From Escherichia virus TH10, in the sequence record MT446388.1: DNA of 64,000 nt; one strand, given 5' to 3'. The notes under the pieces are model-generated. The model ran no database searches. It saw only the letters and a program-made list of their open reading frames with translations, and was not told the DNA's origin. The first letter of the stretch is position 1. Every line of letters starts with the position of its first letter. Shown here in pieces: positions 18,586-58,608 of the stretch. A program made the position numbers and the translations under genes.

Positions 18586-18590
18586 ATAAA

Positions 18591-18804: not shown

Positions 18805-18817
18805 CTCAACAAATTTA

Positions 18818-18948: not shown

Positions 18949-19097
18949 TAATTGTCTTTGTAGATAAGTTATTAAGCTTACCTGTGAGTATGCGACCACA
19001 AAGGGTGAAAGGGTAAATTCTAGATTTAAACCCAAAAAGGCACATCGCTACAGACCTTAAGCAAGTCTGGGTAGCTTATCTACAAAGATAATTTAAT

Positions 19098-19173
19098 GGA
19101 AGTGTAGCAGAATGGTGATGCGGCAGACTTTTAATCTGACAGGCGATGGGTTCGAATCCCTCCACTTCTACCA
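19098..19173 (+). tRNA. tRNA-Lys (UUU)
   Basis: acceptor GGAAGTG/CACTTCT, anticodon stem CAGA/TCTG, loop ctTTTaa, GGGTTCGAATCCC T-arm, CCA. Confidence 0.7.
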
Positions 19174-19251
19174 AATTCACCCTTAACTGAGAAACACCTG
19201 CGCGGCTGGAAACACCCACTCAACAGTTTCTCTAACTAGGGTACTTATTCT

Positions 19252-19328
19252 GGTTCAGTCGCAGATAAGGTAATGCAAGGGTCTCATAAGCCCTATGAAT
19301 GTGGGTTCGATTCCCATCTGAACCTCCA
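19252..19328 (+). tRNA. tRNA with CAU anticodon (Met/Ile2)
   Basis: acceptor GGTTCAG/CTGAACC, anticodon stem AGGGT/GCCCT, loop ctCATaa, T-arm GTGGG-TTCGATT-CCCAT, CCA. Confidence 0.7.
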
Positions 19329-19329
19329 A

Positions 19330-19405
19330 GCTGGTATAGTTAAGAAGGTTATAACACTCCCCTGATAAGGGAACATCGGTGGTTCGATTCCACCTACCAG
19401 TACCA
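19330..19405 (+). tRNA. tRNA-Ile (GAU)
   Basis: acceptor GCTGGTA/TACCAGT, loop ctGATaa, T-arm GGTGG-TTCGATT-CCACC, CCA. Confidence 0.75.
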
Positions 19406-19420
19406 ATTTCAATAAAGTTG

Positions 19421-19449
19421 TTGACATTGAGATGTGACAGCTTTATAGT
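19421..19449 (+). promoter_or_regulatory. sigma70-like promoter (TTGACA-17-TATAGT)
   Basis: consensus hexamers inside tRNA array; followed by about 200 nt ORF-free transcript before tRNA-Arg. Confidence 0.55.
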
Positions 19450-19652
19450 AACCTTAGTTTTCGTTGCGTAGCGTCTATTTTGCAAATTTAAAATAAATGC
19501 AAACGACAATGTTTTTCTGGCAGTAGCTTGATAGGCTAAACACCAGTGAGGTCTTCCAACCCCTCATCAAAGAATTTGGCGTACTAGCCCACGGTATGAT
19601 TAATAAGGTGGGCATCTTTAAGGGCTTTCTCAGAGAGTCTTTAAAGATTAAT

Positions 19653-19729
19653 GCACCCTTAGTTCAATTGGATAGAGCAACGGTCTTCTAAATCGTTAGT
19701 TACAGGTTCGAATCCTGTAGGGTGTGCCA
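19653..19729 (+). tRNA. tRNA-Arg (UCU)
   Basis: acceptor GCACCCT/AGGGTGT, D-arm AGTTCAATTGGATAGAGC, loop ctTCTaa, T-arm ACAGG-TTCGAAT-CCTGT, CCA. Confidence 0.8.
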
Positions 19730-19877
19730 AATAGTTAGCAGATTGCTTAGACGACCTTATCGGGTCTCCGTGTAAGGAGGTGGTCTGTATCTCATGTTTT
19801 CCAGAACATGTAAATAATCTGAGAAGGGGCTTTACAGTGTTGAGATAATACGGTAAGCTTCGAATTATAGTTTTAAT

Positions 19878-19948
19878 AGGGGTGAGCTATGGCAGCAATA
19901 GAGTCTCCAAAATTCTTGATTAGAGTTCGAATCTCTACACCCCTGCCA
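19878..19948 (+). tRNA. tRNA-Trp (CCA), short
   Basis: perfect acceptor AGGGGTG/CACCCCT, T-arm TAGAG-TTCGAAT-CTCTA, loop ctCCAaa, CCA. Confidence 0.65.
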
Positions 19949-19962
19949 GAACAGGTGCTTGT

Positions 19963-20367
19963 ATGAAACTTTGTAGAAAATGTTCTCAAGAAAAGCCTTT
20001 AAGCTGCTTTCATAAAAGAGGTAATGGCTATCAGTCTGCTTGCAAAGATTGTAAAGCTAAGTACTCAGCAAAGAGATACAAAGAAGACCCTACTTATAAA
20101 GCAAAAAGAAAAGTTAGGGCAAAATATGACAAAAAGAGGAACAGAGAGTTCCTTAGTAGATATAAAAAGTTTTGCAAATGCAGAATATGTGGCGAATCTG
20201 AGCCAGTAGCTTTGGATTTTCATCACTTAGACCCTAAAGAGAAAGATTTTGCTCCAAGCAATCTTAAAACTTACTCTAGGGGCACTATTAAGCGTGAAGT
20301 CCGTAAGTGTGTTGTGCTTTGTTCAAACTGTCATAGGAAAGTTCATGCAGGACTGTTAAGTATTTAA
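19963..20367 (+). CDS. HNH endonuclease (134 aa)
   Basis: Cys-rich zinc-binding N-terminus; HNH motif DFHHLDP..N..VVLCSNCHRKVH; embedded in tRNA array. Confidence 0.8.
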   Translation: MKLCRKCSQEKPLSCFHKRGNGYQSACKDCKAKYSAKRYKEDPTYKAKRKVRAKYDKKRNREFLSRYKKFCKCRICGESEPVALDFHHLDPKEKDFAPSNLKTYSRGTIKREVRKCVVLCSNCHRKVHAGLLSI

Positions 20368-20380
20368 CAGTCTTATTAGG

Positions 20381-20468
20381 GGTAGGTAGCGGCTAATGGC
20401 AGCCAAACAGTCTTGAAAACTGTTGCCACTGTAGAGATACGGTGAGGGTTCGACTCCTTTACTTACCG
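20381..20468 (+). tRNA. tRNA-Ser (UGA), type II
   Basis: acceptor GGTAGGT/ACTTACC, anticodon stem ACAGT/ACTGT, loop ctTGAaa, long variable arm, T-loop TTCGACT; CCA not encoded. Confidence 0.75.
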
Positions 20469-20626
20469 CCTAATAAGATTTAAAGCCAAGCTTCATTCGG
20501 ATGTTGCTTTGGTATCCCTCGTGTATTGTCGTACACGCACAGTAAAACACCTAGTAGGTGTCACGGAGAAGAGATAATATCAAGCTCTCCAAAGGTTCTA
20601 GTCACCGGATTAAACAAGACTATGCA

Positions 20627-20647
20627 AAGACCTTTTTAGGTCTTTTT
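20627..20647 (+). terminator. terminator-like hairpin inside tRNA array
   Basis: AAGACC-TTTTTA-GGTCTT followed by TTTA. Confidence 0.35.
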
Positions 20648-20726
20648 AGAGGGCTTCTAAGGTTATTACAGCTTGTTGTGGAACCTTGTTGCTTAGGTTC
20701 TTAGAAGTTCTCTAAAAAGGTTTAAT

Positions 20727-20804
20727 GGGAGATTGACGGTAATTGGTAAACCTACCATCCTTAGAAGTTGGTGTTTGAGGGTTCGAATCCCTTGTCTCCT
20801 ACCA
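20727..20804 (+). tRNA. tRNA, anticodon UAG (Leu-like), short variable arm
   Basis: acceptor GGGAGAT/GTCTCCT, T-arm GAGGG-TTCGAAT-CCCTT, loop ctTAGaa, CCA; lacks type II arm. Confidence 0.6.
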
Positions 20805-20811
20805 AATTAAT

Positions 20812-20887
20812 GCAGGTGTAGCAAAATGGTTATGCGGCTGACTCTTAATCAGTAAGACGATGGGTTCAATTCCCTCCACCTGTACCA
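20812..20887 (+). tRNA. tRNA-Lys (CUU)
   Basis: acceptor GCAGGTG/CACCTGT, anticodon stem GCTGA/TCAGT, loop ctCTTaa, GGGTTCAATTCCC T-arm, CCA. Confidence 0.7.
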
Positions 20888-20893
20888 AACAAT

Positions 20894-20969
20894 GGGGATG
20901 TAGTTTACATGGTTAAAACATAAGTTTTGCAAACTTAAGTACAGGGTTCAATTCCCTGCTTCTCCACCA
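20894..20969 (+). tRNA. tRNA-Ala (UGC)
   Basis: acceptor with G3:U70 pair (Ala identity element), anticodon stem TAAGT/ACTTA, loop ttTGCaa, T-arm CAGGG-TTCAATT-CCCTG, CCA. Confidence 0.8.
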
Positions 20970-20975
20970 ATTAGT

Positions 20976-21050
20976 GCATCCATAGTTTAAACGGGAAAAT
21001 TACAGTCTTCCAAACTGAGGTTGAGGGTTCGATTCCCTCTGGATGCTCCA
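20976..21050 (+). tRNA. tRNA-Gly (UCC)
   Basis: perfect acceptor GCATCCA/TGGATGC, loop ctTCCaa, T-arm GAGGG-TTCGATT-CCCTC, CCA. Confidence 0.75.
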
Positions 21051-21056
21051 AACAAT

Positions 21057-21133
21057 GCTGCTTTCGTATAATTGGCTATTACACATCCCTTGTAAGGATG
21101 GAAATGCAGGTTCGAGTCCTGTGAGCAGCACCA
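21057..21133 (+). tRNA. tRNA-Thr (UGU)
   Basis: acceptor GCTGCTT/GAGCAGC, anticodon stem CATCC/GGATG, loop ctTGTaa, T-loop TTCGAGT, CCA. Confidence 0.8.
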
Positions 21134-21137
21134 ATTC

Positions 21138-21226
21138 AGAGGTCAAGTGAAAGACCGCTTTGAGTCAACTGAAGACCGTAACAAATTCCACGGAGTTGAG
21201 TTAGCGGCACAACTCCAGACCTCTTT
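21138..21226 (+). ncRNA. structured ORF-free element (nested inverted repeats)
   Basis: outer AGAGGTC..GACCTCT and inner GGAGTTG..CAACTCC inverted repeats; contains GAAGACCG motif. Confidence 0.35.
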
Positions 21227-21229
21227 CAT

Positions 21230-21304
21230 ACTCGCTTAGTTTATATGGTAAAACACCACCCTTACAAGATGAAGAAAAAGGTTCAAGTCCTTTAGTGAGT
21301 ACCA
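21230..21304 (+). tRNA. tRNA, isotype uncertain (possibly Val UAC)
   Basis: acceptor ACTCGCT/AGTGAGT, T-arm AAAGG-TTCAAGT-CCTTT, CCA; anticodon stem poorly paired. Confidence 0.55.
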
Positions 21305-21305
21305 T

Positions 21306-21383
21306 GTTCCAGTATCCCAATTGGCAGAGGATGCAAGCTCAAACCTTGTACTAGTGACGGTTCGAATCCGTCTTGGAACACCA
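21306..21383 (+). tRNA. tRNA, anticodon CAA (Leu-like), short variable arm
   Basis: acceptor GTTCCAG/TTGGAAC, anticodon stem GCAAG/CTTGT, loop ctCAAac, T-arm GACGG-TTCGAAT-CCGTC, CCA. Confidence 0.6.
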
Positions 21384-21399
21384 ATTTTAGGAGAACACT

Positions 21400-21507
21400 A
21401 TGAGTAATAAGTCAATTGCAAAAAAGTTTATAGCGTCATTCAAAAACAGACGTAAAAACAACTCTTGTGAAAAACTGTATGGTGTTCTTGTAGGTAAGCA
21501 GGATTAG
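21400..21507 (+). CDS. possible small basic ORF (35 aa)
   Basis: AGGAG RBS 7 nt upstream of ATG; not in ORF track (<60 aa); 3' end overlaps next tRNA by 10 nt. Confidence 0.3.
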   Translation: MSNKSIAKKFIASFKNRRKNNSCEKLYGVLVGKQD

Positions 21508-21573
21508 TTCAAATGGATAGAGCAACAGTCTACGAAGCTGTTAATAGGGGTTCGAATCCCTTATCCTGCACCA
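21498..21573 (+). tRNA. tRNA-Arg (ACG)
   Basis: perfect acceptor GCAGGAT/ATCCTGC, D-arm AGTTCAAATGGATAGAGC, loop ctACGaa, T-loop TTCGAAT, CCA. Confidence 0.8.
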
Positions 21574-21592
21574 ATTTAAAGAGGCTATTTAG

Positions 21593-22150
21593 ATGAGATA
21601 TTTGAAGTATGCTTCATGGATTTTCTTAGCTTTGTTAGAACCATTTGCAGCAACCCTAGCAGTCATCTTAGCACCTTTTGTAGTTCCATTCTACAGTGAG
21701 AAGAAAGGACACTTACCTTTCGGGTTCAGATGGATGGAGACATATGACAACCCAATTGATGGTGATGAAGGTCACGTTAAAAGATGGGCTAATATTAGAT
21801 GGATTGGTAAACTAGGCGTCTACATGCAAAGAGTCGGATGGCTCTGGAGAAACAAAGCTTATAACTTCTCTTACCATGTATTAGGAAGAGATGTAAAAGA
21901 TGTTACTAAGTGGAAAGGTAATATCAACGTAAGTTCTGACCCTGAAGATAATCAGACTGGTTATCTCCTAATGTGGAACAGTAATGCTTGGGGATTATTC
22001 GCCTTTATCCCATCAATTAAAGTCTTTGGTAAACAGTTTTACTGGAGAATTTATATTGGATGGAAACTAAAAAGTGTTGTCCCAGAAGAAAGAGCATTCT
22101 CAAGGGAAAGAGTTATGTTGGCATTCTTTATTCATCCACTGAGAAAGTAA
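21593..22150 (+). CDS. hypothetical membrane protein (185 aa)
   Basis: AAGAGG RBS; hydrophobic N-terminal segment; Trp-rich; embedded in tRNA array. Confidence 0.6.
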   Translation: MRYLKYASWIFLALLEPFAATLAVILAPFVVPFYSEKKGHLPFGFRWMETYDNPIDGDEGHVKRWANIRWIGKLGVYMQRVGWLWRNKAYNFSYHVLGRDVKDVTKWKGNINVSSDPEDNQTGYLLMWNSNAWGLFAFIPSIKVFGKQFYWRIYIGWKLKSVVPEERAFSRERVMLAFFIHPLRK

Positions 22151-22158
22151 AGATTTAA

Positions 22159-22234
22159 AGGGGATTAGTTTACAAGGTTAAAACCTCGGTCTTTGAAATC
22201 GAAGAAGTTGGTTCAATTCCAACATCCCCCGCCA
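22159..22234 (+). tRNA. tRNA-Gln (UUG)
   Basis: acceptor AGGGGAT/ATCCCCC (1-72 mismatch), anticodon stem TCGGT/ATCGA, loop ctTTGaa, T-arm GTTGG-TTCAATT-CCAAC, CCA. Confidence 0.7.
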
Positions 22235-22236
22235 AT

Positions 22237-22315
22237 GCTCCATTACTCCAATTGGCAGAGAGGCCAGACTTAAAATCTGTGTTATGTATCGGTTCGAATC
22301 CGATATGGAGTACCA
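22237..22315 (+). tRNA. tRNA, anticodon UAA (Leu-like), atypical variable region
   Basis: acceptor GCTCCAT/ATGGAGT, T-arm ATCGG-TTCGAAT-CCGAT, loop ctTAAaa, CCA. Confidence 0.55.
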
Positions 22316-22320
22316 AATTT

Positions 22321-22396
22321 AGCGGTATAGCATAACTGGCAATGCAGCAGTCTCTGAAGCTGTCCTATTAAGGTTCAAATCCTTATGCCGCTGCCA
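22321..22396 (+). tRNA. tRNA-Gln (CUG)
   Basis: acceptor AGCGGTA/TGCCGCT, anticodon stem GCAGT/GCTGT, loop ctCTGaa, T-arm TAAGG-TTCAAAT-CCTTA, CCA. Confidence 0.7.
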
Positions 22397-22427
22397 CTTC
22401 TAAGGATTCTTACGAGAGTCCTTAAAT

Positions 22428-22503
22428 GTGGCCTTATCATAAATGGTAATGACCCATGCTGTGAACATGGTCTATACGGGTTCAAATCCCGTAGGTCACC
22501 CCA
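22428..22503 (+). tRNA. tRNA-His (GUG)
   Basis: acceptor GTGGCCT/AGGTCAC, anticodon stem CCATG/CATGG, loop ctGTGaa, discriminator C, CCA. Confidence 0.8.
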
Positions 22504-22508
22504 ATTTA

Positions 22509-22585
22509 TAGTCCAAGTAGCTTATATGGTTAAAGCGCGTGTCTGAAAAACATGAGAAGAGGGTTCAAATCCCACTGGACTACCA
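22509..22585 (+). tRNA. tRNA-Phe (GAA)
   Basis: acceptor TAGTCCA/TGGACTA, anticodon stem CGTGT/ACATG, loop ctGAAaa, T-loop TTCAAAT. Confidence 0.7.
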
Positions 22586-22601
22586 ATTTCAAAGGTGCTT
22601 A

Positions 22602-23336
22602 ATGAAAGAGATGACAGAACAAGGTAAGGAGATTTTTAATCTCTTAAAAACTGGTAAAGGGTTTTCTAATCCCCTTATTACTGGTGCAGCAGTTCTCAGT
22701 GGAACCGTAGCTGCCTCTACATCACTTGTAAGCTCTATTAGCTCTGTAACAGACCCAACAATAAAAGATAAACTTGTTGCTGCTGGACTTACAACAGTTC
22801 TGCTTAACAGCTTTACAACGAGCCTGACAAGCACTACATCAACTACCAAAACACTGACAGATTACGGTCAAAAGTCCATTGATGAGTTTTCATCACGTAT
22901 GCAGGTAGCAAAAGGTTATTCTAATGTTATGGGTGCAGCAGGTGAACAAGTTGGCTGTACACCATTTAGTGGTATTATGGGTGTTGCTACAGAGTATGGT
23001 CAAAAAGCTATTGATACGATTAACAGTGCACTAGACGGTGTTAATGATGTATTAAGTGACTTACAAGACGCTATTGACAAAGGTCTTGATACTATTTCTG
23101 ATTTAGCTAACCAAGCTGTTAGTAAGATTAATGAAGGTATTTCGAAGATTACAGCTTATGCAGATGAAGTTGTGCAGATGATTGAAGAAGAAGCTGCCCT
23201 TATTGCAGAGTACCTTAGAACGAATATCAATGGGTTCTTAGCAGGTATCTTACCAGACTGGTTTGATGATGCTTGTAAAACTGGTGTAATTGATACTATT
23301 GCAACACCAGAAATGAAGAACGCATTACAGAAATAA
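22602..23336 (+). CDS. hypothetical Ser/Thr-rich protein (244 aa)
   Basis: ORF track 22539..23336 starts at GTG inside tRNA-Phe; trimmed to first ATG (MKEMTEQ). Confidence 0.6.
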   Translation: MKEMTEQGKEIFNLLKTGKGFSNPLITGAAVLSGTVAASTSLVSSISSVTDPTIKDKLVAAGLTTVLLNSFTTSLTSTTSTTKTLTDYGQKSIDEFSSRMQVAKGYSNVMGAAGEQVGCTPFSGIMGVATEYGQKAIDTINSALDGVNDVLSDLQDAIDKGLDTISDLANQAVSKINEGISKITAYADEVVQMIEEEAALIAEYLRTNINGFLAGILPDWFDDACKTGVIDTIATPEMKNALQK

Positions 23337-23337
23337 T

Positions 23338-23430
23338 GGAAGATTAACCCTAAAAGGTAAGGGAGCAGTTTGCTAAACTGCCAGTAGCTGAGAAATCGGT
23401 GTACCAGTTCAAGTCTGGTATCTTCCTCCA
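23338..23430 (+). tRNA. tRNA-Ser (GCU), type II
   Basis: perfect acceptor GGAAGAT/ATCTTCC, anticodon stem GCAGT/ACTGC, loop ttGCTaa, long variable arm, T-arm ACCAG-TTCAAGT-CTGGT, CCA. Confidence 0.8.
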
Positions 23431-23434
23431 ATTC

Positions 23435-23510
23435 GAATCCGTGACAGAAATGGCTATGTGCCTGTCTGCAAAACAGGTTTATAAGGGTTCAAGTCCCTTC
23501 GGATTCTCCA
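23435..23510 (+). tRNA. tRNA-Cys (GCA)
   Basis: perfect acceptor GAATCCG/CGGATTC, anticodon stem CCTGT/ACAGG, loop ctGCAaa, T-arm AAGGG-TTCAAGT-CCCTT, CCA. Confidence 0.8.
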
Positions 23511-44442: not shown

Positions 44443-46800
44443 ATGGCAGATTACAAGTTGAGTGAATTAAACTCAATCGACACAATCCGTTCAGACGACC
44501 TTCTTCATGTCAGAGTTAAAAAGAGACCTGAAATGCTAGGTGATGAAGACCGTCGAATGACCTATCAAGACTTCTTAGCATCTTTTAAGCTTGAAAGATT
44601 TGTCCAGATTGCTGGTAGTACTATGACGGGTGACTTAGGGATTGTTAAGTTACTCTATGGCGGTAAGGCAGTATTTGACCCAACAGATTCTTCTGAGATT
44701 AATATTGGGGATGTTTTAAAGACTTTTAAAATTAACGCAAATGGCCTTAAACTAACTATTGCAGATGCTTCGAGGTCAGCAACTGTTTATCATACTCTGA
44801 ATAAACCAAGTCCTAATGAGCTTGGGATGAGAACTAATGAAGAGAATGATGCAAGATACTCAAGATTGGCTGTAAAAAACACCTTTAGCAGTACTCAAGC
44901 TATTCTCTCTGATAATGAAGCCCTTATTATTAAGAATACCACACAAGGTGCGCCAATCTACATTAGTTGCCAAGATGCAGATGGCACTCAAAGATGGTAT
45001 CTTGGCAATGATGCTTTTAGTAGAGATAACCTTGTTATCAAAAATGTTAAATATGGTGTCTATTTAGCTCTTTTAGACGGCCTATTATCCGTGAACAAAT
45101 CACTCCAGATTGTTGGTCAAGTTCGACCTTCTGATTGGGCTAACTTAGATGCTAGATACTTTACTCAGACAGTCGCTAATCAGAGATTTGCACAGCTAGC
45201 TGGTGATAACACCTTTAGGGGTATTAATAATTTTGTAGGTGAGTTCAAAATTACCAGAGATAATGCTGCGTTAGTTATTAAGAATGCCTCTAATGCAACC
45301 GGACTATACCTACTTGGGGTGAAGGCTGACGGTACAAGCAAATTCTACTTAGGGACTGATACTTCTGACTCTGTAGTTAATCTGCACAACTACAGCACAA
45401 GCACAACCATCTCTTTGTCAGATGTGATTAGTGCTACTAAGACTGTGAGAATCACTGGTCAAGTTCAACCTTCTGATTGGACTAACATTGACTCTAGATA
45501 CGTTCCGGCAGGAACTTTGAGCAATCTTGCTAAACTCAGTGACATGAATACTTTTAGGTCTGCACAAATTATTACACAAAATGGTTCATTGTTGCGACTA
45601 AAAAACACTGTTCAGGATAATGAACTGTACCTTTCTGGTCATAATGCTGATAATGCGAGAAGGTGGTACATCGGGACTGCTGATAGAGCAAACCCATCTA
45701 GATTCATTATCCACAATGATAAAACTGTGACCACTATTTTTATGGAAGATGACTTTTTGCTAAATAAAACTGTAAGGATTACTGGTCAAGTACAACCTTC
45801 TGACTTCTCTAACTTAGATGCTAGATACTATACCCAATCTGCCGCAAACGCAAGATATATGCTTGCAAGCATCACTGGCTCAGCTTCTGAAGCAGATGGC
45901 GGTGATGGTGTTGCATGGAATGCAAAAACAGGTCTCTATAAGGTTACTAACACAAGTGGCCAGTCCTCTCTTCTTGTGTATCACATGTTTTTGGGCACTA
46001 GTTCTACGCCATCTGCACAATTAAAGTTTAATTTTAAAAATGGTGGGATGTGGTATAGAACAGCAAGAGATAGCTATGGTTTTGAGGCCAGTTGGTCTAA
46101 AGTTTACACAGATACTCAAAAACCAACCCCTTCAGAAATTGGTGCATATACTAAAGCCGAAACTGACCAGAAAATTGCAACAGCAATTAGTGACTCTACA
46201 GACCTTAATAAAATCTATCCAGTAGGTATTGTAACGTGGTTTAACAGTAATGTTGACCCTAATACAGCACTTCCTGGGTTAACTTGGACGTACCTTAACA
46301 ATGGTGTTGGTAGGACTATCAGGATTGCAGCAGCAAATGGTTCAGATGTTGCTACAACTGGTGGTTCAGACTCTGTAACGTTGTCTGTTGGTAACTTACC
46401 ATCACACACCCATAGTTTCTCTGCTACCACTTCATCTTTTGATTATGGTACAAAGAACACTAATAACACTGGTGCTCACACCCACTCTGTAAGTGGTACT
46501 GCTAACTCTGGTGGTGGACACGCACATAGAATCTCACAAGGTGACAACGCTAACGTACCATCTGGTCGTGTTGCTTCATCAAACTCTGCTCAAACGCACG
46601 TTGGTTGGACAGAAAGTGATGGTGTTCACACTCACTCTGTAAGTGGTTCTGCTGCATCTGCTGGGGGACATGCTCATTCTGTAGGTATTGGCGCTCACAG
46701 TCACACAGTTAGTGGTAACACTGGTGGTACAGGTTCTGGTTCAGCATTCAGTGTTACTAACCAGTTCTACAAGTTAATGGCTTGGGTAAGAACTGCTTAA
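44443..46800 (+). CDS. long tail fiber protein with triplicated shaft repeats and His-x-His tip (785 aa)
   Basis: three internal repeats (..(V/L)(R/Q)I(T/V)GQV(Q/R)PSD(W/F).N(L/I)D(A/S)RY..); C-terminal FDYGTKNTNNTGAHTHSVSG..HAHSVGIGAHSHTVSG; C-terminus ..MAWVRTA. Confidence 0.8.
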   Translation: MADYKLSELNSIDTIRSDDLLHVRVKKRPEMLGDEDRRMTYQDFLASFKLERFVQIAGSTMTGDLGIVKLLYGGKAVFDPTDSSEINIGDVLKTFKINANGLKLTIADASRSATVYHTLNKPSPNELGMRTNEENDARYSRLAVKNTFSSTQAILSDNEALIIKNTTQGAPIYISCQDADGTQRWYLGNDAFSRDNLVIKNVKYGVYLALLDGLLSVNKSLQIVGQVRPSDWANLDARYFTQTVANQRFAQLAGDNTFRGINNFVGEFKITRDNAALVIKNASNATGLYLLGVKADGTSKFYLGTDTSDSVVNLHNYSTSTTISLSDVISATKTVRITGQVQPSDWTNIDSRYVPAGTLSNLAKLSDMNTFRSAQIITQNGSLLRLKNTVQDNELYLSGHNADNARRWYIGTADRANPSRFIIHNDKTVTTIFMEDDFLLNKTVRITGQVQPSDFSNLDARYYTQSAANARYMLASITGSASEADGGDGVAWNAKTGLYKVTNTSGQSSLLVYHMFLGTSSTPSAQLKFNFKNGGMWYRTARDSYGFEASWSKVYTDTQKPTPSEIGAYTKAETDQKIATAISDSTDLNKIYPVGIVTWFNSNVDPNTALPGLTWTYLNNGVGRTIRIAAANGSDVATTGGSDSVTLSVGNLPSHTHSFSATTSSFDYGTKNTNNTGAHTHSVSGTANSGGGHAHRISQGDNANVPSGRVASSNSAQTHVGWTESDGVHTHSVSGSAASAGGHAHSVGIGAHSHTVSGNTGGTGSGSAFSVTNQFYKLMAWVRTA

Positions 46801-52833: not shown

Positions 52834-53934
52834 TTATTCGTAATCTCGAATAACTAACCCAACAGGGAACTGTAAAGAACCCTTACGAGTCATCTTCTGG
52901 AACTGAACAGTTAAAGGTTTCCCGATAAACTCTTCAGGATGTTCAGCAAGATACTGTTTCTTCTCATGAGTAGTCTTCCATGAGACATCTACAAAGACGT
53001 TAGGAAGAGTCTCTACGACGAACTTACCATGACCACGTTTATCAGTCTTTACACCAGTTACTTTAAACTCTTCAGTGTGCATCTTCTTGTGCTTAATCAA
53101 GAAGTATGAACGGTGACAACACTCATAGAAGGAGTCTTCAGAGATTGAACGGTACATTGCACCTTCAAACTTAGCTTCAACCCACTTATCATGAGCTTCA
53201 TCAAACTCTTCCCAAGAGTTAACACGACGAGACTTAACAGGGACAACTTTACAGCCGTCTCTGAAGTCATTCAATGGTGAAGTCTCAATAATATCTCTAC
53301 GCTCAGGCCACGTCTTAGTGCTGTCACAGATATCATACCAGTAGAACTGGAGTAGATGTCGGTCTGGATTGTCAGCATTCTTAATCATAGACACAATATC
53401 TTCTAAGTCCCAACCATGAGCATAAATCTCACCATCAAAGTCTTCTACTTGTGGATGCAATTTAAGCAACAAAAGCAAATCTGGGATTAGTTCTTCTGGG
53501 ACGTTGTAAATAGTATTCTCACGAGAATAAGCCGTGAAGTTAACTAAATCAGCATCTCTTGAAATCCTACAACGGACACCATCAAGTTTCGGTTGAGCAT
53601 CAGCAGGGAACTTCAGATACTTTGCGTGACTAACCTTTGCAGCATCATGAGCAAGCTGTACACCCACCTTTTCAGTATTCTGTGCAGACTCTTTTGTGTA
53701 AGCATAACCTTTACGGTCAACTTGCTTTTTATACTTAGCAGCAACTTCAAAGAGAGCTTGCTGTTCAGCGTTACGCTCATTCTTTTTACCGATGTTTTTA
53801 GGTTCTGCTGTATACTCTTCAAACATCATCTTGCCATTTTCTTTACCGTAGGTTGTGATAACTTTGTCGCCTACAGCAACACATGACCAGACGTTGAAGG
53901 AACCATCTTTATTTTGTTTGTACAGAATTGTCAT
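52834..53934 (-). CDS. ATP-dependent DNA ligase
   Basis: motif I KLDGVRC (KxDG), EGAMYR and LIKHKK motifs; start trimmed to Met preceded by GAGGT RBS. Confidence 0.8.
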   Translation of the reverse strand: MTILYKQNKDGSFNVWSCVAVGDKVITTYGKENGKMMFEEYTAEPKNIGKKNERNAEQQALFEVAAKYKKQVDRKGYAYTKESAQNTEKVGVQLAHDAAKVSHAKYLKFPADAQPKLDGVRCRISRDADLVNFTAYSRENTIYNVPEELIPDLLLLLKLHPQVEDFDGEIYAHGWDLEDIVSMIKNADNPDRHLLQFYWYDICDSTKTWPERRDIIETSPLNDFRDGCKVVPVKSRRVNSWEEFDEAHDKWVEAKFEGAMYRSISEDSFYECCHRSYFLIKHKKMHTEEFKVTGVKTDKRGHGKFVVETLPNVFVDVSWKTTHEKKQYLAEHPEEFIGKPLTVQFQKMTRKGSLQFPVGLVIRDYE

Positions 53935-54127
53935 TTTTAACCTCTGAGTGATACCAAGTATTGCAAGCATTACATGCGTAAAGCTCTAAGTCATTTTTAT
54001 CTGGTTTATGAAAACAGTTTGCTCCACAGTGGCAACGAAACGGCTTTCCACCAACTGTCAGGATGAAGGATTGAACCTTTCCATCAGGAGTTCGTACAGC
54101 ATTTTTATTCTTGGCTTCTTTACTCAT
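53909..54127 (-). CDS. hypothetical zinc-ribbon protein (about 72 aa)
   Basis: CHCG..C..C..CNAC cysteine cluster; start uncertain (ORF track 53909..54262). Confidence 0.4.
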   Translation of the reverse strand: MSKEAKNKNAVRTPDGKVQSFILTVGGKPFRCHCGANCFHKPDKNDLELYACNACNTWYHSEVKNDNSVQTK

Positions 54128-54283
54128 TTGTGCTATTACCTGTGTCAGATTTAATATAAGACCTATCACTACGTCTTTTAATGAAATGTACAAAGCATTT
54201 TGGTGTATTTTTTGCATCTTTAATATGCAACCTTTCGAAACTGAGTACTGTGAAGATTGCATCTGTCATTGTTTGCTTAGATT

Positions 54284-54490
54284 TCATTTTCTCTTACCAC
54301 CAATTTCCACGTCGATAACCTGAACACCACTAGCAACATCAAACTTGTGAGTAATACTCTCCACAGTGTAAGTCCAACCATCAATGCGAACCCATTCACC
54401 CTCTCGTGGTACTATTGGGTTTTGTTGGGCCACGGTTGCAGTGGAATAAACAACATCGTAGCAGTAGATATAGTGTACTAAAACTTGCAT
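54284..54490 (-). CDS. hypothetical protein (about 68 aa)
   Basis: ORF track 54284..54589 trimmed to internal Met to avoid 90-nt overlap with the lipoprotein gene. Confidence 0.4.
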   Translation of the reverse strand: MQVLVHYIYCYDVVYSTATVAQQNPIVPREGEWVRIDGWTYTVESITHKFDVASGVQVIDVEIGGKRK

Positions 54491-54497
54491 ATTAGTC

Positions 54498-54758
54498 TCA
54501 TCCATCAATAACAGTAGTGTGTGATTGACCATTTTTGCCATATCTATAAGATGTTGTTGTTTGAGAGTTGGGGCATCTGACAACAACAATATCCCTGCTT
54601 ATAGCATCACCATTGAGTTTGTAGATTTTGCAGTCTTGCATCTCTGGAGGGAGGCTGTAAGAGGCATCTTTGTTTTCATAAGATGGGTTACAGCCAGCCA
54701 GAAAAATTACTCCAAGTGCAACCATTGCTTTCACACAACTCTTAACCTTATTGTTCAC
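54498..54758 (-). CDS. putative lipoprotein (86 aa)
   Basis: signal peptide with lipobox FLAGC then small Cys-containing domain. Confidence 0.65.
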   Translation of the reverse strand: MNNKVKSCVKAMVALGVIFLAGCNPSYENKDASYSLPPEMQDCKIYKLNGDAISRDIVVVRCPNSQTTTSYRYGKNGQSHTTVIDG

Positions 54759-54890
54759 GATAGTCTACCTCTCTGTATGTTTTTAAATAGTGAGTGATGA
54801 GTTCTGGTAATTCACTACGCTTAACGTTTGAACGAAGAAGTGTCCAGTCAAAACCTTTACCAACCCTTCCCCAGAGACTGTACATTTTCT

Positions 54891-55124
54891 TCATAGCAAC
54901 TCCAGAATATCAATACGTTCACCTTTGAGTACTCCAGTACGGTCTTTTGCAATCTTACCTTCAACAATAAGAATGTGTGCAGACCTTAAAGTGTCACTGT
55001 TAAAGGCTTTTACGAACTTGCTAGGCATCACTACAATACACATCTCCTGAATCAACTCTGGAGTATAGCAGTTGTCGTGAAGTTGCTGAATAACGTCTGC
55101 AAGTGTCATTTTTGATGTCTCCAA
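54891..55124 (-). CDS. hypothetical protein (77 aa)
   Basis: ORF. Confidence 0.45.
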   Translation of the reverse strand: METSKMTLADVIQQLHDNCYTPELIQEMCIVVMPSKFVKAFNSDTLRSAHILIVEGKIAKDRTGVLKGERIDILELL

Positions 55125-55315
55125 TACTCAATGTCAATAAGTTCTTGTGCAATGCTTTTCAGATTACCTTTCAAGAAAACCTTCTCAGAACCTGAAAGAG
55201 ATGAATTGTCAATTAACCTGCTCATTCTCTCAAACAACTTCTGCTTACGGTTCTTGATAGTCTCCTTTGAAGCACCTTTCATCATCGCTGCATGGGTTCT
55301 TCCACGGTGGCTCAT
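55106..55315 (-). CDS. hypothetical basic protein (69 aa)
   Basis: ORF. Confidence 0.45.
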   Translation of the reverse strand: MSHRGRTHAAMMKGASKETIKNRKQKLFERMSRLIDNSSLSGSEKVFLKGNLKSIAQELIDIEYWRHQK

Positions 55316-55366
55316 AAGCCCTCCTATATAAGATATAGTATAAGGTACTCTTCCATGAGCACCTTG

Positions 55367-55882
55367 TCAACTTAGTTTTGCAAACTCTCCGTGGAGTTTA
55401 ATAGCAGCTTCACAGTAAGCTTTATGGGCTTCTTCTTCCGTTGTGTATGTTCCTATATGTATAGTCTTGCCGTTATGGTTAATCTGGGCTATCCACTTAC
55501 CAGACTTGCTTCTACTTGTACCTTTTAAGTTTTTTGATGTTCTAGGTTGTCTCCTATTAGACATGTTCTGTTCTTTTGTGGCCTCTCTTAGATTGTCCCA
55601 AGCGTTATTCAAACCATCTCCATCTTTGTGGTCAATGTGTTTGTCAGGCCACTTACCTGTCATCCAGAACCAAGCAATTCGGTGATTACCTGTCCTGTAT
55701 CCTAAAATCTGTGTGTGCATATACACACCAGACCTTGTGCGCTTAATTGCTCCGGCTTGGCTTCCAATAACCACCCTACTACTATGTGGAGGTCTGCCAA
55801 TCCATGTTAAGACCCCTGTTTCGGGGTCATAATCTAACCAAGATTTTAACTGTTCATGTGTGAATCCACAATCTCTCATCAA
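55367..55882 (-). CDS. HNH homing endonuclease with AP2-like DNA-binding domain (171 aa)
   Basis: HIDHKDGDGLNNAWDNLREATKEQN (HNH) and SGKWIAQINHNGKTIHIGTYTTEEEAHKAY (AP2-like); directly downstream of DNA polymerase. Confidence 0.8.
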   Translation of the reverse strand: MMRDCGFTHEQLKSWLDYDPETGVLTWIGRPPHSSRVVIGSQAGAIKRTRSGVYMHTQILGYRTGNHRIAWFWMTGKWPDKHIDHKDGDGLNNAWDNLREATKEQNMSNRRQPRTSKNLKGTSRSKSGKWIAQINHNGKTIHIGTYTTEEEAHKAYCEAAIKLHGEFAKLS

Positions 55883-58608
55883 TGTACCTCATACCAGCTC
55901 TTACCAACCTTACCAGTACCAGTTACCAGTGTTTCTTTCTTAAGACCTAAGTTCTTAGAAGCTTGTCCATAATACCAGTCAGTAACCGCTTTCACCTCTG
56001 CCGTCATACTTTCTGGACATTCCCAACTCGTCTCATCGTGATATGCGCAGAGTAAACGAGCACCAATAGCTGGTTTGCGACCATTCAACTTCATCAAGCC
56101 TTCGTCAATCATACGACGACAAGCAAGGTTAATCGCCTCATTTTGAATCTGAGCCTCTGAACCCATCAAAAGATAGTTCAATAATTTGTGTGGAGATTTA
56201 CACCACAACCAAGCTCCAGCAACCTTTACAAAACCACCTTTAGAGATTGCAGCGGTCTTACCAAACACCTCTTCAAGTGCCTTTTTAGTTGCTTTGTAGT
56301 CAGCTTCCAAGTTATCTAATAGTTTCTTAATCTTTGGCAAACGCACAAAGTAAGTCTGTTTAGTTAATGCACCTTCCTGAGTAGTAGCTGCCTTAATAGT
56401 TTTAGCAAACTTCTCATCACCTGCACCGAACAGTAGTGCATAGATACCATTCTTAGCTTTCTTACGACCTTTGCTAATCTCATGAAGAAGATTCTCATCC
56501 TGAGTAGCTCGACAAGTCAAGATATCCTGCTCATCATTCAAGCTAAAGTAAATACTGTTCAGTGTATGTGCATCAGTCCCTGAATAGACAACGTACAGGT
56601 CATTCTCAGAGTCATAGCGAAGGTACTTATCAATCTCTGGGTTTAGGTACTCATCAAAATGTTTGCAGTAATAGCGTCCATCTTCTTGACGAATGAACTC
56701 AATCTCTTCTTTACCTTGCGTTACCGCTTTGGTGAAGTCTTTATCACCCATAAAGTTACAAAGAAGAACTAGCTGGGCTGAGTTCATATCTACAGATACT
56801 ACGTTGGTTCCCTCTTCACAAATCCACACTGCCCTCATTGGTTCCCCATAGACAGCAGCACCAGACGGTACGTTTACAATACCATATTGTGTCATACGTC
56901 CAGTTGAAGTACCAAACACCATTGCACCAGCACTAAGGCGACCATCAGGACGAATCTGGTTCAACCAACCTTTTTCATCATCCTTTGAGTTCTCAATAGT
57001 TCTGCGTCTGTGCATCAAAGTGTAGTATTTAGCAATCTTCTGTCCAAGCTCACCTTCAATCGTATCATAAGATGATTCAGTAAGTTTTGGTGAAGTACGG
57101 ATTAAGCAAGGCTCAAGCAAATCTGTGTATTTCTTCACAGACCAGTTATGCTCGATGTACTGTACACCTTCATGTTCAACATAACTCAAACCACACCGCT
57201 CAATCATTTCCTGCCACTTAGGATGCTTTGTAATCATCTTTTTATTGTCTTTGAAACGACAAACTTTGACAGGGCGACCATCTGAGTCTTTCTTGTAATT
57301 CCAGTCATCTGGAATCCAACCAACTGATTTCAAGTAGTCTTTAACAACTGCTACCTGAGTCATACGAGAAACTTCAAACTCAATTGGTGTATATGGTGCA
57401 TCAATCAATCCTGTGTAGCGACTTGACTCAAGTTCAAAGTGGTTAACAACATGGCTGTTATAGTACTTCACAGTTTTAACAGTTTTTACTGGCTTCCAGT
57501 CTTTGCATTTCTTACCAATCTTTGCATTCAACTCGTTGCAAATTGCACGGGCATCCTTCATTGCTACAAAGCCTTCCTTGTACTCTTCACCAGTTACAGA
57601 GTTGGTTGGTGTATAGCAATTTCTCTTTTCAATGTTAAAAATCTTTGTAGTTGGCTTACCAAATGGCTTGATTTCGTATGTCTGCATCTCACCGTTACGT
57701 ACCTGCTGACGATACTTTGTTTTAGGGTACTTGGTAATTCTCTTCAGTCCATCTGCATGACCGAATGTTTCAACATACTCATTCCAAGCTTTTGCAAACT
57801 CTTCTCCAGTGACTTTACCTTTGGTCTTAATAGTTGGAGGTAGATGTGGTTCAACCTCTGAAGCAAGCTCATTAGTCAACTTGTCAAGTTCCTTTACATG
57901 GAACTCCATAAGCTCTTTATCAGCTTTCCAGCCATTGATAGCTTGTTGACTCATCCAGAAAGATGTTTCTTTAGCTCGCATGTAGGTTTCATAAGTGTCT
58001 ATGCCACACTTCTTAAGCTTGAGATATTCATTATCAAGTGCCCGTTTAGTTTTGGCGTTAATACGGATATCTTCTACAACACGAGTGAAGATTTCTGCAT
58101 TCCACACACCCCAATGTTCAATCTCTGGTTTACGAACACCAACACGAGCACCCCATGCAGCCAAACCATGAGCACCTTTATAACCCTTTGGAGTTGGTCT
58201 ATCCATCCACTGAACACGAGACTGGATAAGAGAATCCTGAAAGAAATTACTCCACGGTTTACACTTTGGATTATCAAAGTTCCATAAATCAGGTGCAATG
58301 TGATTGAAAACCCACCAGTCATAACCGAGGCCGTTATGGATGCAAAGTCGTTTTGCCTTTAACGCAAACTCAACACCTTCACGTAAACCACCCTTGATGT
58401 ACTTAGTGTACTTGTGACCGAGGATAGGCTCATCTGTAAAGACCCATACAGGTGGCTCTTCATCGTCAGATTTATAGTCTGCGAAAGCCATTACGTGCAC
58501 TTTAGTGAACTCAAGGAGTAAACCATCAGTTTCTGTATCACCAACTAAATGTAAGTTTTTAAAATCTACGTTTTCCATTTTTACTCCCTCTAAAATCATT
58601 AACCTCAT
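55879..58608 (-). CDS. DNA polymerase, family A, with 3'-5' exonuclease domain
   Basis: exo I motif DTETDGL near N-terminus; polymerase motif C LLCAYHDE; 909 aa; start may be internal Met (MENVDF). Confidence 0.85.
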   Translation of the reverse strand: MRLMILEGVKMENVDFKNLHLVGDTETDGLLLEFTKVHVMAFADYKSDDEEPPVWVFTDEPILGHKYTKYIKGGLREGVEFALKAKRLCIHNGLGYDWWVFNHIAPDLWNFDNPKCKPWSNFFQDSLIQSRVQWMDRPTPKGYKGAHGLAAWGARVGVRKPEIEHWGVWNAEIFTRVVEDIRINAKTKRALDNEYLKLKKCGIDTYETYMRAKETSFWMSQQAINGWKADKELMEFHVKELDKLTNELASEVEPHLPPTIKTKGKVTGEEFAKAWNEYVETFGHADGLKRITKYPKTKYRQQVRNGEMQTYEIKPFGKPTTKIFNIEKRNCYTPTNSVTGEEYKEGFVAMKDARAICNELNAKIGKKCKDWKPVKTVKTVKYYNSHVVNHFELESSRYTGLIDAPYTPIEFEVSRMTQVAVVKDYLKSVGWIPDDWNYKKDSDGRPVKVCRFKDNKKMITKHPKWQEMIERCGLSYVEHEGVQYIEHNWSVKKYTDLLEPCLIRTSPKLTESSYDTIEGELGQKIAKYYTLMHRRRTIENSKDDEKGWLNQIRPDGRLSAGAMVFGTSTGRMTQYGIVNVPSGAAVYGEPMRAVWICEEGTNVVSVDMNSAQLVLLCNFMGDKDFTKAVTQGKEEIEFIRQEDGRYYCKHFDEYLNPEIDKYLRYDSENDLYVVYSGTDAHTLNSIYFSLNDEQDILTCRATQDENLLHEISKGRKKAKNGIYALLFGAGDEKFAKTIKAATTQEGALTKQTYFVRLPKIKKLLDNLEADYKATKKALEEVFGKTAAISKGGFVKVAGAWLWCKSPHKLLNYLLMGSEAQIQNEAINLACRRMIDEGLMKLNGRKPAIGARLLCAYHDETSWECPESMTAEVKAVTDWYYGQASKNLGLKKETLVTGTGKVGKSWYEVH

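What the first reader, a model, noticed from the sequence alone, without database searches (positions are those of the whole stretch)
54498..54758. Small lipoprotein in the replication module: candidate superinfection-exclusion or receptor-masking factor
An 86-aa product with a canonical lipobox (FLAGC) and a small Cys-containing mature domain is encoded among DNA metabolism genes. Small phage lipoproteins often act in superinfection exclusion by masking the receptor (T5 Llp-type) or as spanin components. Its location away from the endolysin favours the exclusion role.
Basis: inference. Interest (0 to 1): 0.45.

Follow-up and report, generated by a model that had tools for sequence, protein, structure and literature searches.

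The report
Conserved small phage lipoprotein, function unknown
This is a real, strongly conserved gene of a Felix O1-like phage for a tiny lipid-anchored periplasmic protein of the uncharacterised DUF4884 family; it is neither a T5 Llp-type receptor blocker nor a lysis spanin, and what it does in the cell envelope has never been tested.

Summary
Window 54498-54758 (-) encodes an 86-aa protein with a canonical lipoprotein signal (…VIFLAG|C23) and two further invariant cysteines. It lies in a tightly packed minus-strand gene array between DNA polymerase and DNA ligase of a Felixounavirus.

The gene is under strong purifying selection (dN/dS 0.02-0.25). It belongs to a very large family of small lipoproteins carried almost only by phages (PHROG 902, Pfam DUF4884). 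An exhaustive search found 1310 clusters. Members occur in Felix O1-like, T5-like Vibrio, T4-like, rV5-like, T1-like and jumbo phages.

The Llp reading is not supported:
- The mature domain shows no sequence or fold similarity to T5 Llp or Cor.
- The disulfide topology differs.
- The gene is not next to the receptor-binding gene.
- T1-like phage Henu8 carries a DUF4884 gene, a Cor gene and a spanin as three separate genes.

The spanin reading is rejected. Relatives have a separate i-/o-spanin pair, and this gene has no partner.

Best inference, untested: an outer-membrane-anchored, disulfide-stapled periplasmic binder, made with the replication genes. It probably acts alone on a conserved envelope component, most plausibly in post-adsorption exclusion or envelope protection. 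Interest is modest.

The parts
54498..54758 (-). Whole ORF (86 codons plus TGA) for the DUF4884 / PHROG 902 lipoprotein precursor. Alternative starts: GTG 54734 (78 aa) and ATG 54725 (75 aa).
54768..54773 (-). Shine-Dalgarno-like GAGAGG, 9 nt upstream of the GTG at 54758.
   Evidence: read from the sequence
54693..54758 (-). Signal peptide, residues 1-22: n-region MNNKVKSCVK and h-region AMVALGVIFLAG.
   Evidence: position conserved in the family
54690..54701 (-). Lipobox L20-A21-G22-C23. Cys23 is the predicted lipidated first residue of the mature protein. Asn24 at +2 predicts outer-membrane sorting.
   Evidence: The sorting prediction is an inference from the E. coli +2 rule.
54501..54692 (-). 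Mature domain, 64 aa: a polar tether followed by five predicted beta-strands. Conserved motifs are LPxEMxDCKIY, VVRCPNS and YGK.
54630..54632 (-). Cys43, invariant. Predicted disulfide partner of Cys62.
   Evidence: The pairing is inferred from the strand register of the model.
54573..54575 (-). Cys62, invariant, within the RCPNS motif.
54748..54894 (-). Upstream 48-aa gene (PHROG 2381, function unknown). Its stop overlaps the 86-aa start by 11 nt. It belongs to the same gene array and is not a functional partner.
54284..54490 (-). Downstream 68-aa gene (PHROG 4427, function unknown). Its ATG lies 7 nt after the lipoprotein stop. It has no transmembrane segment, so it is not an i-spanin.

Best explanation
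SHOWN. The ORF is a real gene under purifying selection. It keeps the same position, between DNA polymerase and DNA ligase, in Felixounavirus and Mooglevirus. Its product has a canonical lipoprotein signal and belongs to a very large family of 70-150-aa lipoproteins carried almost only by phages (PHROG 902 / Pfam DUF4884). The family has three invariant cysteines and no characterised member. The gene moves between unrelated phage lineages as a solitary gene. The family is distinct from Llp/Cor and from spanins.

INFERRED.
1. The precursor is exported, lipidated on Cys23 and cleaved by signal peptidase II.
2. Asn at +2 lets the Lol system deliver it to the periplasmic leaflet of the outer membrane.
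3. Cys43 and Cys62 form a disulfide that staples the central beta-hairpin of a five-strand mini-domain held on a roughly 12-residue tether.
4. It is transcribed with the replication genes, so it is present from early or middle infection.
5. Too small to be an enzyme, it acts alone by binding, through its conserved RCPNS / GK / DCK-Y face, a periplasmic envelope component shared by many Proteobacteria.
6. The most likely outcome is protection of the infected cell's envelope against a second breach. That would be superinfection exclusion at a post-adsorption, periplasmic step (the stage at which T4 Spackle and Imm act), not plugging of one specific receptor.
For: - Gene reality: dN/dS 0.02-0.25; conserved synteny.
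- Lipoprotein status: canonical lipobox, kept in about all 259 homologues examined; Pfam LPAM_1 hits in 17 of 117 members.
- Family: PHROG 902, E 4.9e-18. PF16225:DUF4884 is on record for the 99%-identical P0001. There are 1310 50%-identity clusters at E<=1e-3.
- Spread: Felixounavirus, 114-kb Vibrio phages, Plateaulakevirus, Certrevirus, Saclayvirus, jumbo Asteriusvirus and Eneladusvirus, and T4-like Acj61, PX29 and Aeh1.
- Solitary gene: no neighbouring gene is shared between lineages.
- Mostly phage-borne: no confirmed relative in 185,579 species genomes for the central subtype; none on plasmids.
- Distinct class: Henu8 has DUF4884 gp6, Cor gp45 and u-spanin gp61 as three separate genes.
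- Structure: the mature domain is modelled as five beta-strands, pLDDT about 80-84 over its first 40 residues. Cys21 and Cys40 (mature numbering) sit at the facing ends of an antiparallel hairpin.
- Co-transcription: no promoter enrichment and no minus-strand terminator in the gene array between polymerase and the start of the ligase gene; the only minus-strand terminator-like site lies inside the ligase ORF, downstream of this gene. Start and stop codons are overlapping or closely spaced.
- Recurrent placement in replication or early modules of unrelated phages.
Against: - There is no functional evidence for any member. The exclusion role rests on analogy with the few characterised early periplasmic phage proteins.
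- About a quarter of members have Asp at +2 (63 of 254), including E. coli jumbo phages (CDAS). That predicts inner-membrane retention, so membrane location is not uniform across the family and the target is unclear.
- The C-terminal hairpin of the model has low confidence (pLDDT about 50).
- SignalP and LipoP were not run, and expression timing was not measured.
- The local Pfam copy returned no DUF4884 hit, so that label rests on precomputed annotation.
Confidence: 0.4

Rival explanations
1. It is another periplasmic host-takeover function that is not exclusion. The lipoprotein would bind and inhibit or re-tune a host envelope enzyme or sensor, for example a peptidoglycan hydrolase, an envelope-stress sensor or a periplasmic nuclease. 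Alternatively it would modulate lysis timing, to keep the envelope intact until progeny are complete.
For: The same facts apply as for the best explanation: a solitary, small, non-enzymatic, disulfide-stapled periplasmic binder, conserved across phages of many hosts and co-located with early and replication genes. The mixed Asn/Ser/Thr/Glu versus Asp at +2 fits a target reachable from either membrane better than it fits an outer-membrane receptor.
Confidence: 0.3
2. It is a T5 Llp / Cor-type receptor blocker. An outer-membrane lipoprotein would bind the periplasmic face of the phage's own receptor and allosterically close it, preventing re-adsorption and loss of progeny on debris.
For: It shares the generic architecture: a small lipoprotein with an intramolecular disulfide, a beta-rich domain and predicted outer-membrane sorting (Llp properties from PMC9586334, and the bioRxiv paper 10.64898/2026.03.26.714494). 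hhalign of the full-length profile against T5 Llp gave 91% probability. A jumbo-phage homologue is labelled 'lytic conversion lipoprotein' and hits the Cor PHROG at E 9e-4.
Against: - Those similarities cover only the signal peptide and the first strand. With signal peptides removed, hhalign probability falls to 5%, and the mature-only HMM gives E about 1 for Llp and no hit for two Cor proteins.
- The window protein does not hit PHROG 1119.
- The disulfide is C21-C40, against C11-C58 in Llp.
- The gene is not next to the tail-fibre gene, and no lipoprotein gene is.
- Henu8 has both Cor and DUF4884.
- The mature domain is nearly unchanged across Salmonella, E. coli, Shigella and Citrobacter Ounavirinae. 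From general knowledge, Felix O1-type phages use LPS core, which has no periplasmic face to plug.
Confidence: 0.1
3. It is the outer-membrane spanin subunit (Rz1-type o-spanin) of the phage, encoded away from the endolysin because Felix O1-like lysis genes are scattered.
For: It is a small predicted outer-membrane lipoprotein with periplasmic cysteines. It is the only lipoprotein gene in the 64-kb window. Lysis genes of Felix O1-like phages are scattered (PMC4319497).
Against: - Moogle has an annotated overlapped i-spanin/o-spanin pair (CPT_Moogle122/121) beside the PNK and rIIB genes, while its DUF4884 homologue is CPT_Moogle40, 'hypothetical'. That region has no match in this window.
- No i-spanin-like gene with a transmembrane segment flanks this ORF.
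- The mature domain has only 4 Pro in 64 residues and a predicted folded beta structure.
- The family also occurs in phages with their own spanins, for example Henu8 gp61.
Confidence: 0.02
4. It is a chance ORF or a non-secreted protein, and the lipobox is coincidental.
For: The start codon is a GTG of uncertain position. No signal-peptide predictor could be run.
Against: dN/dS is 0.02-0.25. Hundreds of homologues keep the lipobox cysteine at the same place. PHROG 902 matches at E 4.9e-18.
Confidence: 0.02

Closest known systems
Pfam DUF4884 (PF16225) / PHROG 902, e.g. Escherichia phage Henu8 gp6 and Citrobacter phage Moogle gp40
   Same: The window protein is a member. It has the same length class, the same lipobox position, the three invariant cysteines with 18 residues between the second and third, and the C-x-x-Y, RCPNS and SGK motifs.
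   Different: Nothing material. The family has no known function, so membership names the protein without explaining it. The Ounavirinae branch ends at '…VIDG' and lacks the C-terminal 'VEYVKK' tail of the commonest metagenomic type.
T5 Llp and the Cor proteins of T1/phi80 (PHROG 1119): receptor-jamming superinfection-exclusion lipoproteins
   Same: A small phage lipoprotein, beta-rich, with one intramolecular disulfide, facing the periplasm and made during infection (PMC9586334).
   Different: The mature domain shows no detectable homology or fold similarity. The disulfide staples a hairpin (C21-C40) rather than joining the N- and C-termini (C11-C58). The gene is not adjacent to the receptor-binding gene. 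The family is shared by phages of quite different hosts, and it coexists with Cor in Henu8.
T4 Spackle (Sp) and Imm: early periplasmic or membrane proteins that block a post-adsorption step of superinfection
   Same: The proposed working analogy: an early-expressed, solitary, small envelope protein that does not depend on the identity of the receptor (PMC7677548 abstract).
   Different: No sequence relation (no PDB hit). From general knowledge, Spackle is a helical, non-lipidated protein. The resemblance is functional conjecture only.
Rz1-type o-spanins and T1 gp11-type u-spanins
   Same: A small phage lipoprotein predicted to sit in the outer membrane.
   Different: No i-spanin partner, no C-terminal transmembrane segment, not proline-rich and predicted to be folded. 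Ounavirinae have a separate spanin pair.

Membership tests
Bacterial-type lipoprotein (Lgt/LspA/Lnt substrate) | N-terminal signal with a positive n-region, a hydrophobic core and a lipobox [LVI][ASTVI][GAS]C | tested here: met
   MNNKVKSCVK-AMVALGVIF-LAG|C. It is the only credible case in the 64 kb.
Bacterial-type lipoprotein (Lgt/LspA/Lnt substrate) | Lipobox cysteine conserved in homologues | tested here: met
   Invariant column C23 in alignments A1, A2 and A3. 254 of 259 members pass a strict pattern. LPAM_1 hits in 17 of 117 members.
Bacterial-type lipoprotein (Lgt/LspA/Lnt substrate) | Prediction by SignalP/LipoP; experimental lipidation and globomycin sensitivity | not testable with these tools
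   No such predictor or experiment was available.
DUF4884 (PF16225) / PHROG 902 | Significant match to the family profile | tested here: met
   PHROG 902, E 4.9e-18, residues 2-83. PF16225:DUF4884 is on record (unmarked, so E<=1e-5) for P0001, which is 99% identical. The local Pfam copy returned no PF16225 hit for any member, so it probably lacks the model.
DUF4884 (PF16225) / PHROG 902 | Shared motif pattern: C(lipobox)…LPxELxDCKxY…VVRCPNS…GK | tested here: met
   Henu8 gp6, named DUF4884 by NCBI, matches the mature-only profile with the same Cys spacing.
T5 Llp / Cor superinfection-exclusion lipoproteins (PHROG 1119) | Sequence homology of the mature domain | tested here: not met
   No PHROG 1119 hit. 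No PDB hit at E<=10, although Llp is deposited. hhalign on mature domains gives 5% probability. The mature-only HMM gives E 1.1 for Llp and no hit for pSf-1 or Henu8 Cor.
T5 Llp / Cor superinfection-exclusion lipoproteins (PHROG 1119) | Fold like Llp (PDB 7QJF / 8A60) | tested here: inconclusive
T5 Llp / Cor superinfection-exclusion lipoproteins (PHROG 1119) | Essential disulfide joining the N- and C-terminal regions (C11-C58 in Llp) | tested here: not met
   Only two non-lipid cysteines are present, 19 residues apart (mature C21 and C40), flanking one hairpin (Llp data).
T5 Llp / Cor superinfection-exclusion lipoproteins (PHROG 1119) | Gene adjacent to the receptor-binding protein gene | tested here: not met
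   The tail-fibre gene is at 44443-46800. The thymidylate synthase and DHFR genes and about 10 other ORFs lie between it and this gene. No lipobox ORF lies near the fibre genes. In T5 and Henu8 the llp/cor gene abuts the receptor-binding or tail genes.
T5 Llp / Cor superinfection-exclusion lipoproteins (PHROG 1119) | Blocks adsorption of the cognate phage by binding its outer-membrane protein receptor | not testable with these tools
   This needs expression and adsorption assays. From general knowledge, Felix O1-type phages use LPS core.
Two-component spanin, o-spanin subunit (Rz1 type) | Embedded, overlapping or adjacent i-spanin gene with an N-terminal transmembrane segment | tested here: not met
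   The flanking products have no transmembrane segment. The true pair in Moogle is elsewhere and has no match in the window.
Two-component spanin, o-spanin subunit (Rz1 type) | Proline-rich, largely unstructured periplasmic domain | tested here: not met
   4 Pro in 64 residues and five predicted beta-strands.
Unimolecular spanin (T1 gp11 type) | Lipobox plus a C-terminal transmembrane segment | tested here: not met
   The C-terminus …GKNGQSHTTVIDG is polar. Compare Henu8 gp61, which has the segment.

The most novel reading that the evidence does not exclude
DUF4884 proteins may be a widespread, so far unrecognised class of phage envelope effectors. On this reading a solitary, lipid-anchored, disulfide-stapled mini-domain is traded among at least eight unrelated phage lineages, almost all of them virulent phages of Proteobacteria. 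It would bind one conserved periplasmic host component to provide receptor-independent superinfection exclusion or envelope takeover. That would be mechanistically distinct from Llp/Cor receptor jamming, from T4 Spackle/Imm and from spanins.
Probability: 0.3. Interest if true: 0.6.

Novelty: new member of a known kind. Interest (0 to 1): 0.33.

Why it matters
If the inferred role is right, one small gene would give a receptor-independent way for lytic phages to seal or re-tune the envelope of an infected Gram-negative cell. The gene is present in more than 1,300 sequence clusters. It occurs in therapeutic-type phages (Felix O1-like, rV5-like, T4-like and jumbo phages).

That matters for three reasons:
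- phage-cocktail design, since it could cause mutual exclusion between co-applied phages;
- understanding of what early 'hypothetical' genes do;
- finding new periplasmic targets.

The immediate practical point is narrower. The 'lytic conversion lipoprotein' label on some homologues is an artefact of signal-peptide similarity and should not be propagated.

Tried and rejected
- Homology to T5 Llp. The full-length profile comparison looked positive (91%), but the signal came from the signal peptides. It was rejected after the mature-only comparison (5%) and targeted HMM tests.
- Pfam, NCBIfam and PDB sequence searches gave only noise: Zn_ribbon_InsA at 16 bits, and Apolipoprotein E through its signal peptide.
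- A conserved partner gene in seven phage lineages: none found.
- Chromosomal or plasmid homologues that might give functional context. The first genome-contig scan failed because the alignment was too diverse. The second found no confirmed relative. Plasmids gave none. One Paraburkholderia copy lies beside RdgC and Band_7 genes, which is not informative.
- The spanin hypothesis: rejected.
- Literature searches for DUF4884, for phage lipoproteins and for Felixounavirus exclusion found no functional study.
- pSf-1 was fetched as a T1-like example, but it lacks the gene. Henu8 was used instead.
- A first dN/dS run was mis-registered by one codon. It was discarded and redone.

Full report
**Source and setting**

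The window is from a Felix O1-like myophage. Region 53500-56000 is 92-95% identical at the DNA level to many Felixounavirus genomes from Salmonella and E. coli.

All of the following genes are on the minus strand, in this order:
- DNA polymerase, 55879-58608;
- an HNH_3+AP2 homing endonuclease, 55367-55882;
- three small genes of unknown function, PHROGs 5180, 4230 and 2381;
- the ORF in question, 54498-54758;
- three more small genes, PHROG 4427, an unassigned 55-aa ORF and PHROG 5768;
- an ATP-dependent DNA ligase, 52834-53970.

By comparison with the annotated relative SeKF_63, the endolysin is at 12751-13215 and the tail-fibre gene is at 44443-46800. The thymidylate synthase and DHFR genes lie between the fibre gene and this block.

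**Checking the observation**

The ORF is there as described: 86 codons from GTG 54758 to TGA 54498-54500. Its product is MNNKVKSCVKAMVALGVIFLAG|CNPSYENKDASYSLPPEMQDCKIYKLNGDAISRDIVVVRCPNSQTTTSYRYGKNGQSHTTVIDG. It has a Lys-rich n-region, a 12-residue hydrophobic core and the lipobox L-A-G-C. A GAGAGG motif lies 9 nt upstream of the GTG.

The exact start is uncertain. Relatives begin at an ATG (MWKAV…) that is TGT in this lineage. GTG 54758 (86 aa), GTG 54734 (78 aa) and ATG 54725 (75 aa) are all open, and public records differ in which they use. The mature protein is the same in every case.

The feature is not chance. A strict lipobox scan of all six frames of the 64 kb finds only this ORF, and a relaxed scan adds only antisense or implausible frames. 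Against orthologues from SeKF_63, Tribble, Sf15 and Henu11, synonymous differences far outnumber non-synonymous ones, with dN/dS of 0.02-0.25. The polymerase…lipoprotein…ligase order is kept in Felixounavirus and Mooglevirus.

**The family**

The protein matches PHROG 902 (function unknown) at E 4.9e-18. The 99%-identical database protein P0001 carries a precomputed Pfam hit, PF16225, which the context tool names DUF4884. The local Pfam copy returned no PF16225 hit for any of 117 members, so it probably lacks the model.

tblastn against phage genomes finds the protein in 597 records:
- Felixounavirus and Mooglevirus;
- 295 Vibrio phages of about 114 kb;
- Plateaulakevirus (Aeromonas);
- Certrevirus (Vequintavirinae), and further Escherichia phages of about 137-145 kb (A5-4, W70) whose lineage was not checked;
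- Saclayvirus (Acinetobacter);
- jumbo Asteriusvirus and Eneladusvirus;
- T4-like Acj61, PX29 and Aeh1.

An exhaustive profile search of 1.84 billion representative proteins gives 1310 clusters at E<=1e-3 and 742 at E<=1e-10. All of the best 150 listed are 71-154 aa.

The lipobox cysteine and two further cysteines are invariant. The consensus is C…LPxELKDCK[IF]Y…VVRCPNSTTSTTYxSGK…VVIDGVEY. Of 259 members, 254 pass a strict lipobox pattern and the rest have variants.

The family is essentially phage-borne. A scan of one genome per 185,579 bacterial and archaeal species with the commonest subtype confirmed no relative. Plasmids gave none. The one chromosomal case seen, in Paraburkholderia, sits next to RdgC and Band_7 genes.

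**Structure**

AlphaFold2 on the full-length alignment gave pLDDT 63. On a mature-domain alignment of 91 diverse members it gave pLDDT 71. The first 40 residues scored about 80-84 and the C-terminal hairpin about 50.

The model is a five-strand beta mini-domain after a short tether. Mature Cys21 and Cys40 sit at the facing ends of the antiparallel hairpin formed by strands 22-27 and 35-39. A disulfide there is geometrically natural; this is an inference, because the coordinates were not inspected.

**Is it an Llp/Cor-type receptor blocker?**

T5 Llp was taken from the T5 genome. A full-length profile comparison scored 91%, but the aligned stretch was the signal peptide plus about 10 residues. 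With signal peptides removed, the probability fell to 5%.

The mature-only HMM gives E about 1 for T5 Llp and nothing for the Cor proteins of pSf-1 and Henu8. The full-length HMM touches them only through the signal peptide. The PDB holds Llp (7QJF, 8A60), yet neither the protein nor the family profile matches anything there at E<=10.

The 'lytic conversion lipoprotein' label on the fEgEco12 homologue traces to a weak hit (E 9e-4) of its residues 1-49 to the Cor PHROG.

Other features also differ. Llp's essential disulfide joins C11 to C58, whereas here the two cysteines are 19 residues apart. llp and cor genes abut the receptor-binding or tail genes. This gene is about 7.7 kb from the fibre gene, and no lipoprotein gene lies near the fibre gene.

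The T1-like phage Henu8 encodes three separate lipoproteins:
- gp6 is the DUF4884 member. It matches the mature-only profile with the same Cys spacing and the TY-SGK motif.
- gp45 is Cor, beside the tail genes.
- gp61 is a unimolecular spanin in the lysis cassette.

DUF4884 is therefore a third class of phage lipoprotein. In addition, one family shared by phages of such different hosts, and nearly unchanged across Salmonella, E. coli, Shigella and Citrobacter Ounavirinae, does not behave like a receptor-specific plug.

**Is it a spanin?**

No. The flanking products have no transmembrane segment. The mature domain is not proline-rich and is predicted to fold. There is no C-terminal transmembrane segment.

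Citrobacter phage Moogle has an annotated overlapped i-/o-spanin pair next to the PNK and rIIB genes, while its DUF4884 homologue is gp40, annotated as 'hypothetical'. That spanin region has no match in the window, so it lies in the part of the genome not covered here.

**How it probably works**

The following is shown: it is a real gene; it has a lipoprotein signal; it belongs to DUF4884; it is a solitary gene with no conserved neighbour across lineages; and it is placed repeatedly among early or replication genes in unrelated phages. There is no promoter enrichment, and no minus-strand terminator in the gene array between polymerase and the start of the ligase gene.

The following is inferred:
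- It is exported, lipidated and cleaved.
- DsbA forms the Cys43-Cys62 disulfide.
- It is expressed together with the replication genes.
- It acts as a binder rather than an enzyme, through the conserved RCPNS / GK / DCK-Y residues, on an envelope component shared by many Proteobacteria.

I favour a post-adsorption exclusion or envelope-protection role, working at the stage where T4 Spackle and Imm act, at about 0.4. Another periplasmic takeover role, such as an inhibitor of a host envelope enzyme or sensor or a lysis-timing function, stands at about 0.3. Llp-type receptor jamming stands at about 0.1.

One observation cuts against any outer-membrane-only model. The +2 residue is Asp in 63 of 254 members, including E. 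coli jumbo phages (CDAS), but Asn in Ounavirinae. This suggests either mixed membrane anchoring or a target reachable from both membranes.

**Novelty and verdict**

The gene and its family are already catalogued. Identical or near-identical proteins are in public records, under PHROG 902 and DUF4884, but no member has a known function.

The Llp-type mechanism is not supported, and exclusion in general is untested.

Interest is modest. The value lies in a clear, cheap experimental test of a very widespread phage gene, and in correcting a misleading annotation.

Noticed in passing
window 55367-55882 (-): An HNH_3 + AP2 homing endonuclease sits directly downstream of the DNA polymerase gene, and its start overlaps the polymerase stop. 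Many relatives align here in two pieces. In phage Tribble the polymerase is annotated as a fragment next to an endonuclease. This looks like a mobile insertion hotspot.
   Followed up: partly
window 18008-23510 (+): A cluster of 27 tRNA genes, including two tRNA-Met, tRNA-Trp and two tRNA-Ser. SeKF_63 has tRNA features numbered up to 23 in the corresponding region, one number being absent from the stretch listed.
   Followed up: no
window 54725-54758 (-): The ATG start used by most orthologues (MWKAV…) is TGT in this lineage. Public records therefore annotate 75-, 78- or 86-aa versions, and some metagenomic calls extend to 124 aa. The true start is undetermined.
   Followed up: partly
window 53909-54127 (-): A small Cys-rich product (…FRCHCGANCFHKPDKNDLELYACNACNTWYH…, PHROG 5768, function unknown). 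It looks like a zinc-ribbon protein and lies just upstream of, and overlapping, the ligase gene.
   Followed up: no
window 54284-54589 (-): The mechanical 101-aa ORF overlaps the lipoprotein gene in another frame. The PHROG 4427 match starts at its residue 34, so the real gene most likely starts at ATG 54490, 7 nt after the lipoprotein stop.
   Followed up: partly
L002 (Escherichia phage fEgEco12) 3007-3895: Two genes are labelled 'lytic conversion lipoprotein'. g526 is a DUF4884 member whose label rests on a signal-peptide-level hit to the Cor PHROG. g528 is a different six-Cys lipoprotein (PHROG 31263) with no Cor hit at all. Both labels look unfounded.
   Followed up: partly
L015 (Escherichia phage Henu8) 3121-3381, 31565-31792, 45954-46340: One 50-kb T1-like genome carries three different small lipoproteins: DUF4884 gp6, Cor gp45 and u-spanin gp61. 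The related phage pSf-1 lacks the DUF4884 gene at the same spot, so it is an accessory gene there.
   Followed up: yes
family-wide (proteins P0001-P0259): The residue after the lipidated Cys varies: Glu 64, Asp 63, Ser 35, Thr 30, Asn 23. Phages of the same host species (E. coli) differ: Asn in Felixounavirus, Asp-Ala in jumbo phages, Glu in Henu8. This implies different predicted membrane sorting within one family.
   Followed up: partly
Every homologue carries a precomputed PF16225 (DUF4884) hit, but the local Pfam-A scan returns no PF16225 match for any of 117 members. The model seems to be missing from that copy.
   Followed up: partly
L011 (Paraburkholderia sp. EG287A contig) 8001-8390: A rare chromosomal DUF4884 copy. 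It has a 50-residue Arg/Pro-rich C-terminal extension and lies between a Band_7 (SPFH) gene, with an RdgC gene a little further upstream, and two small ORFs followed by a LysR regulator gene. It may be a prophage remnant.
   Followed up: no
window 12751-13215 (-) and the whole window: The endolysin has no spanin or obvious lipoprotein gene nearby. Lysis genes are scattered, as reported for Felix O1-like phages. The i-/o-spanin pair annotated in Moogle lies outside this window.
   Followed up: yes
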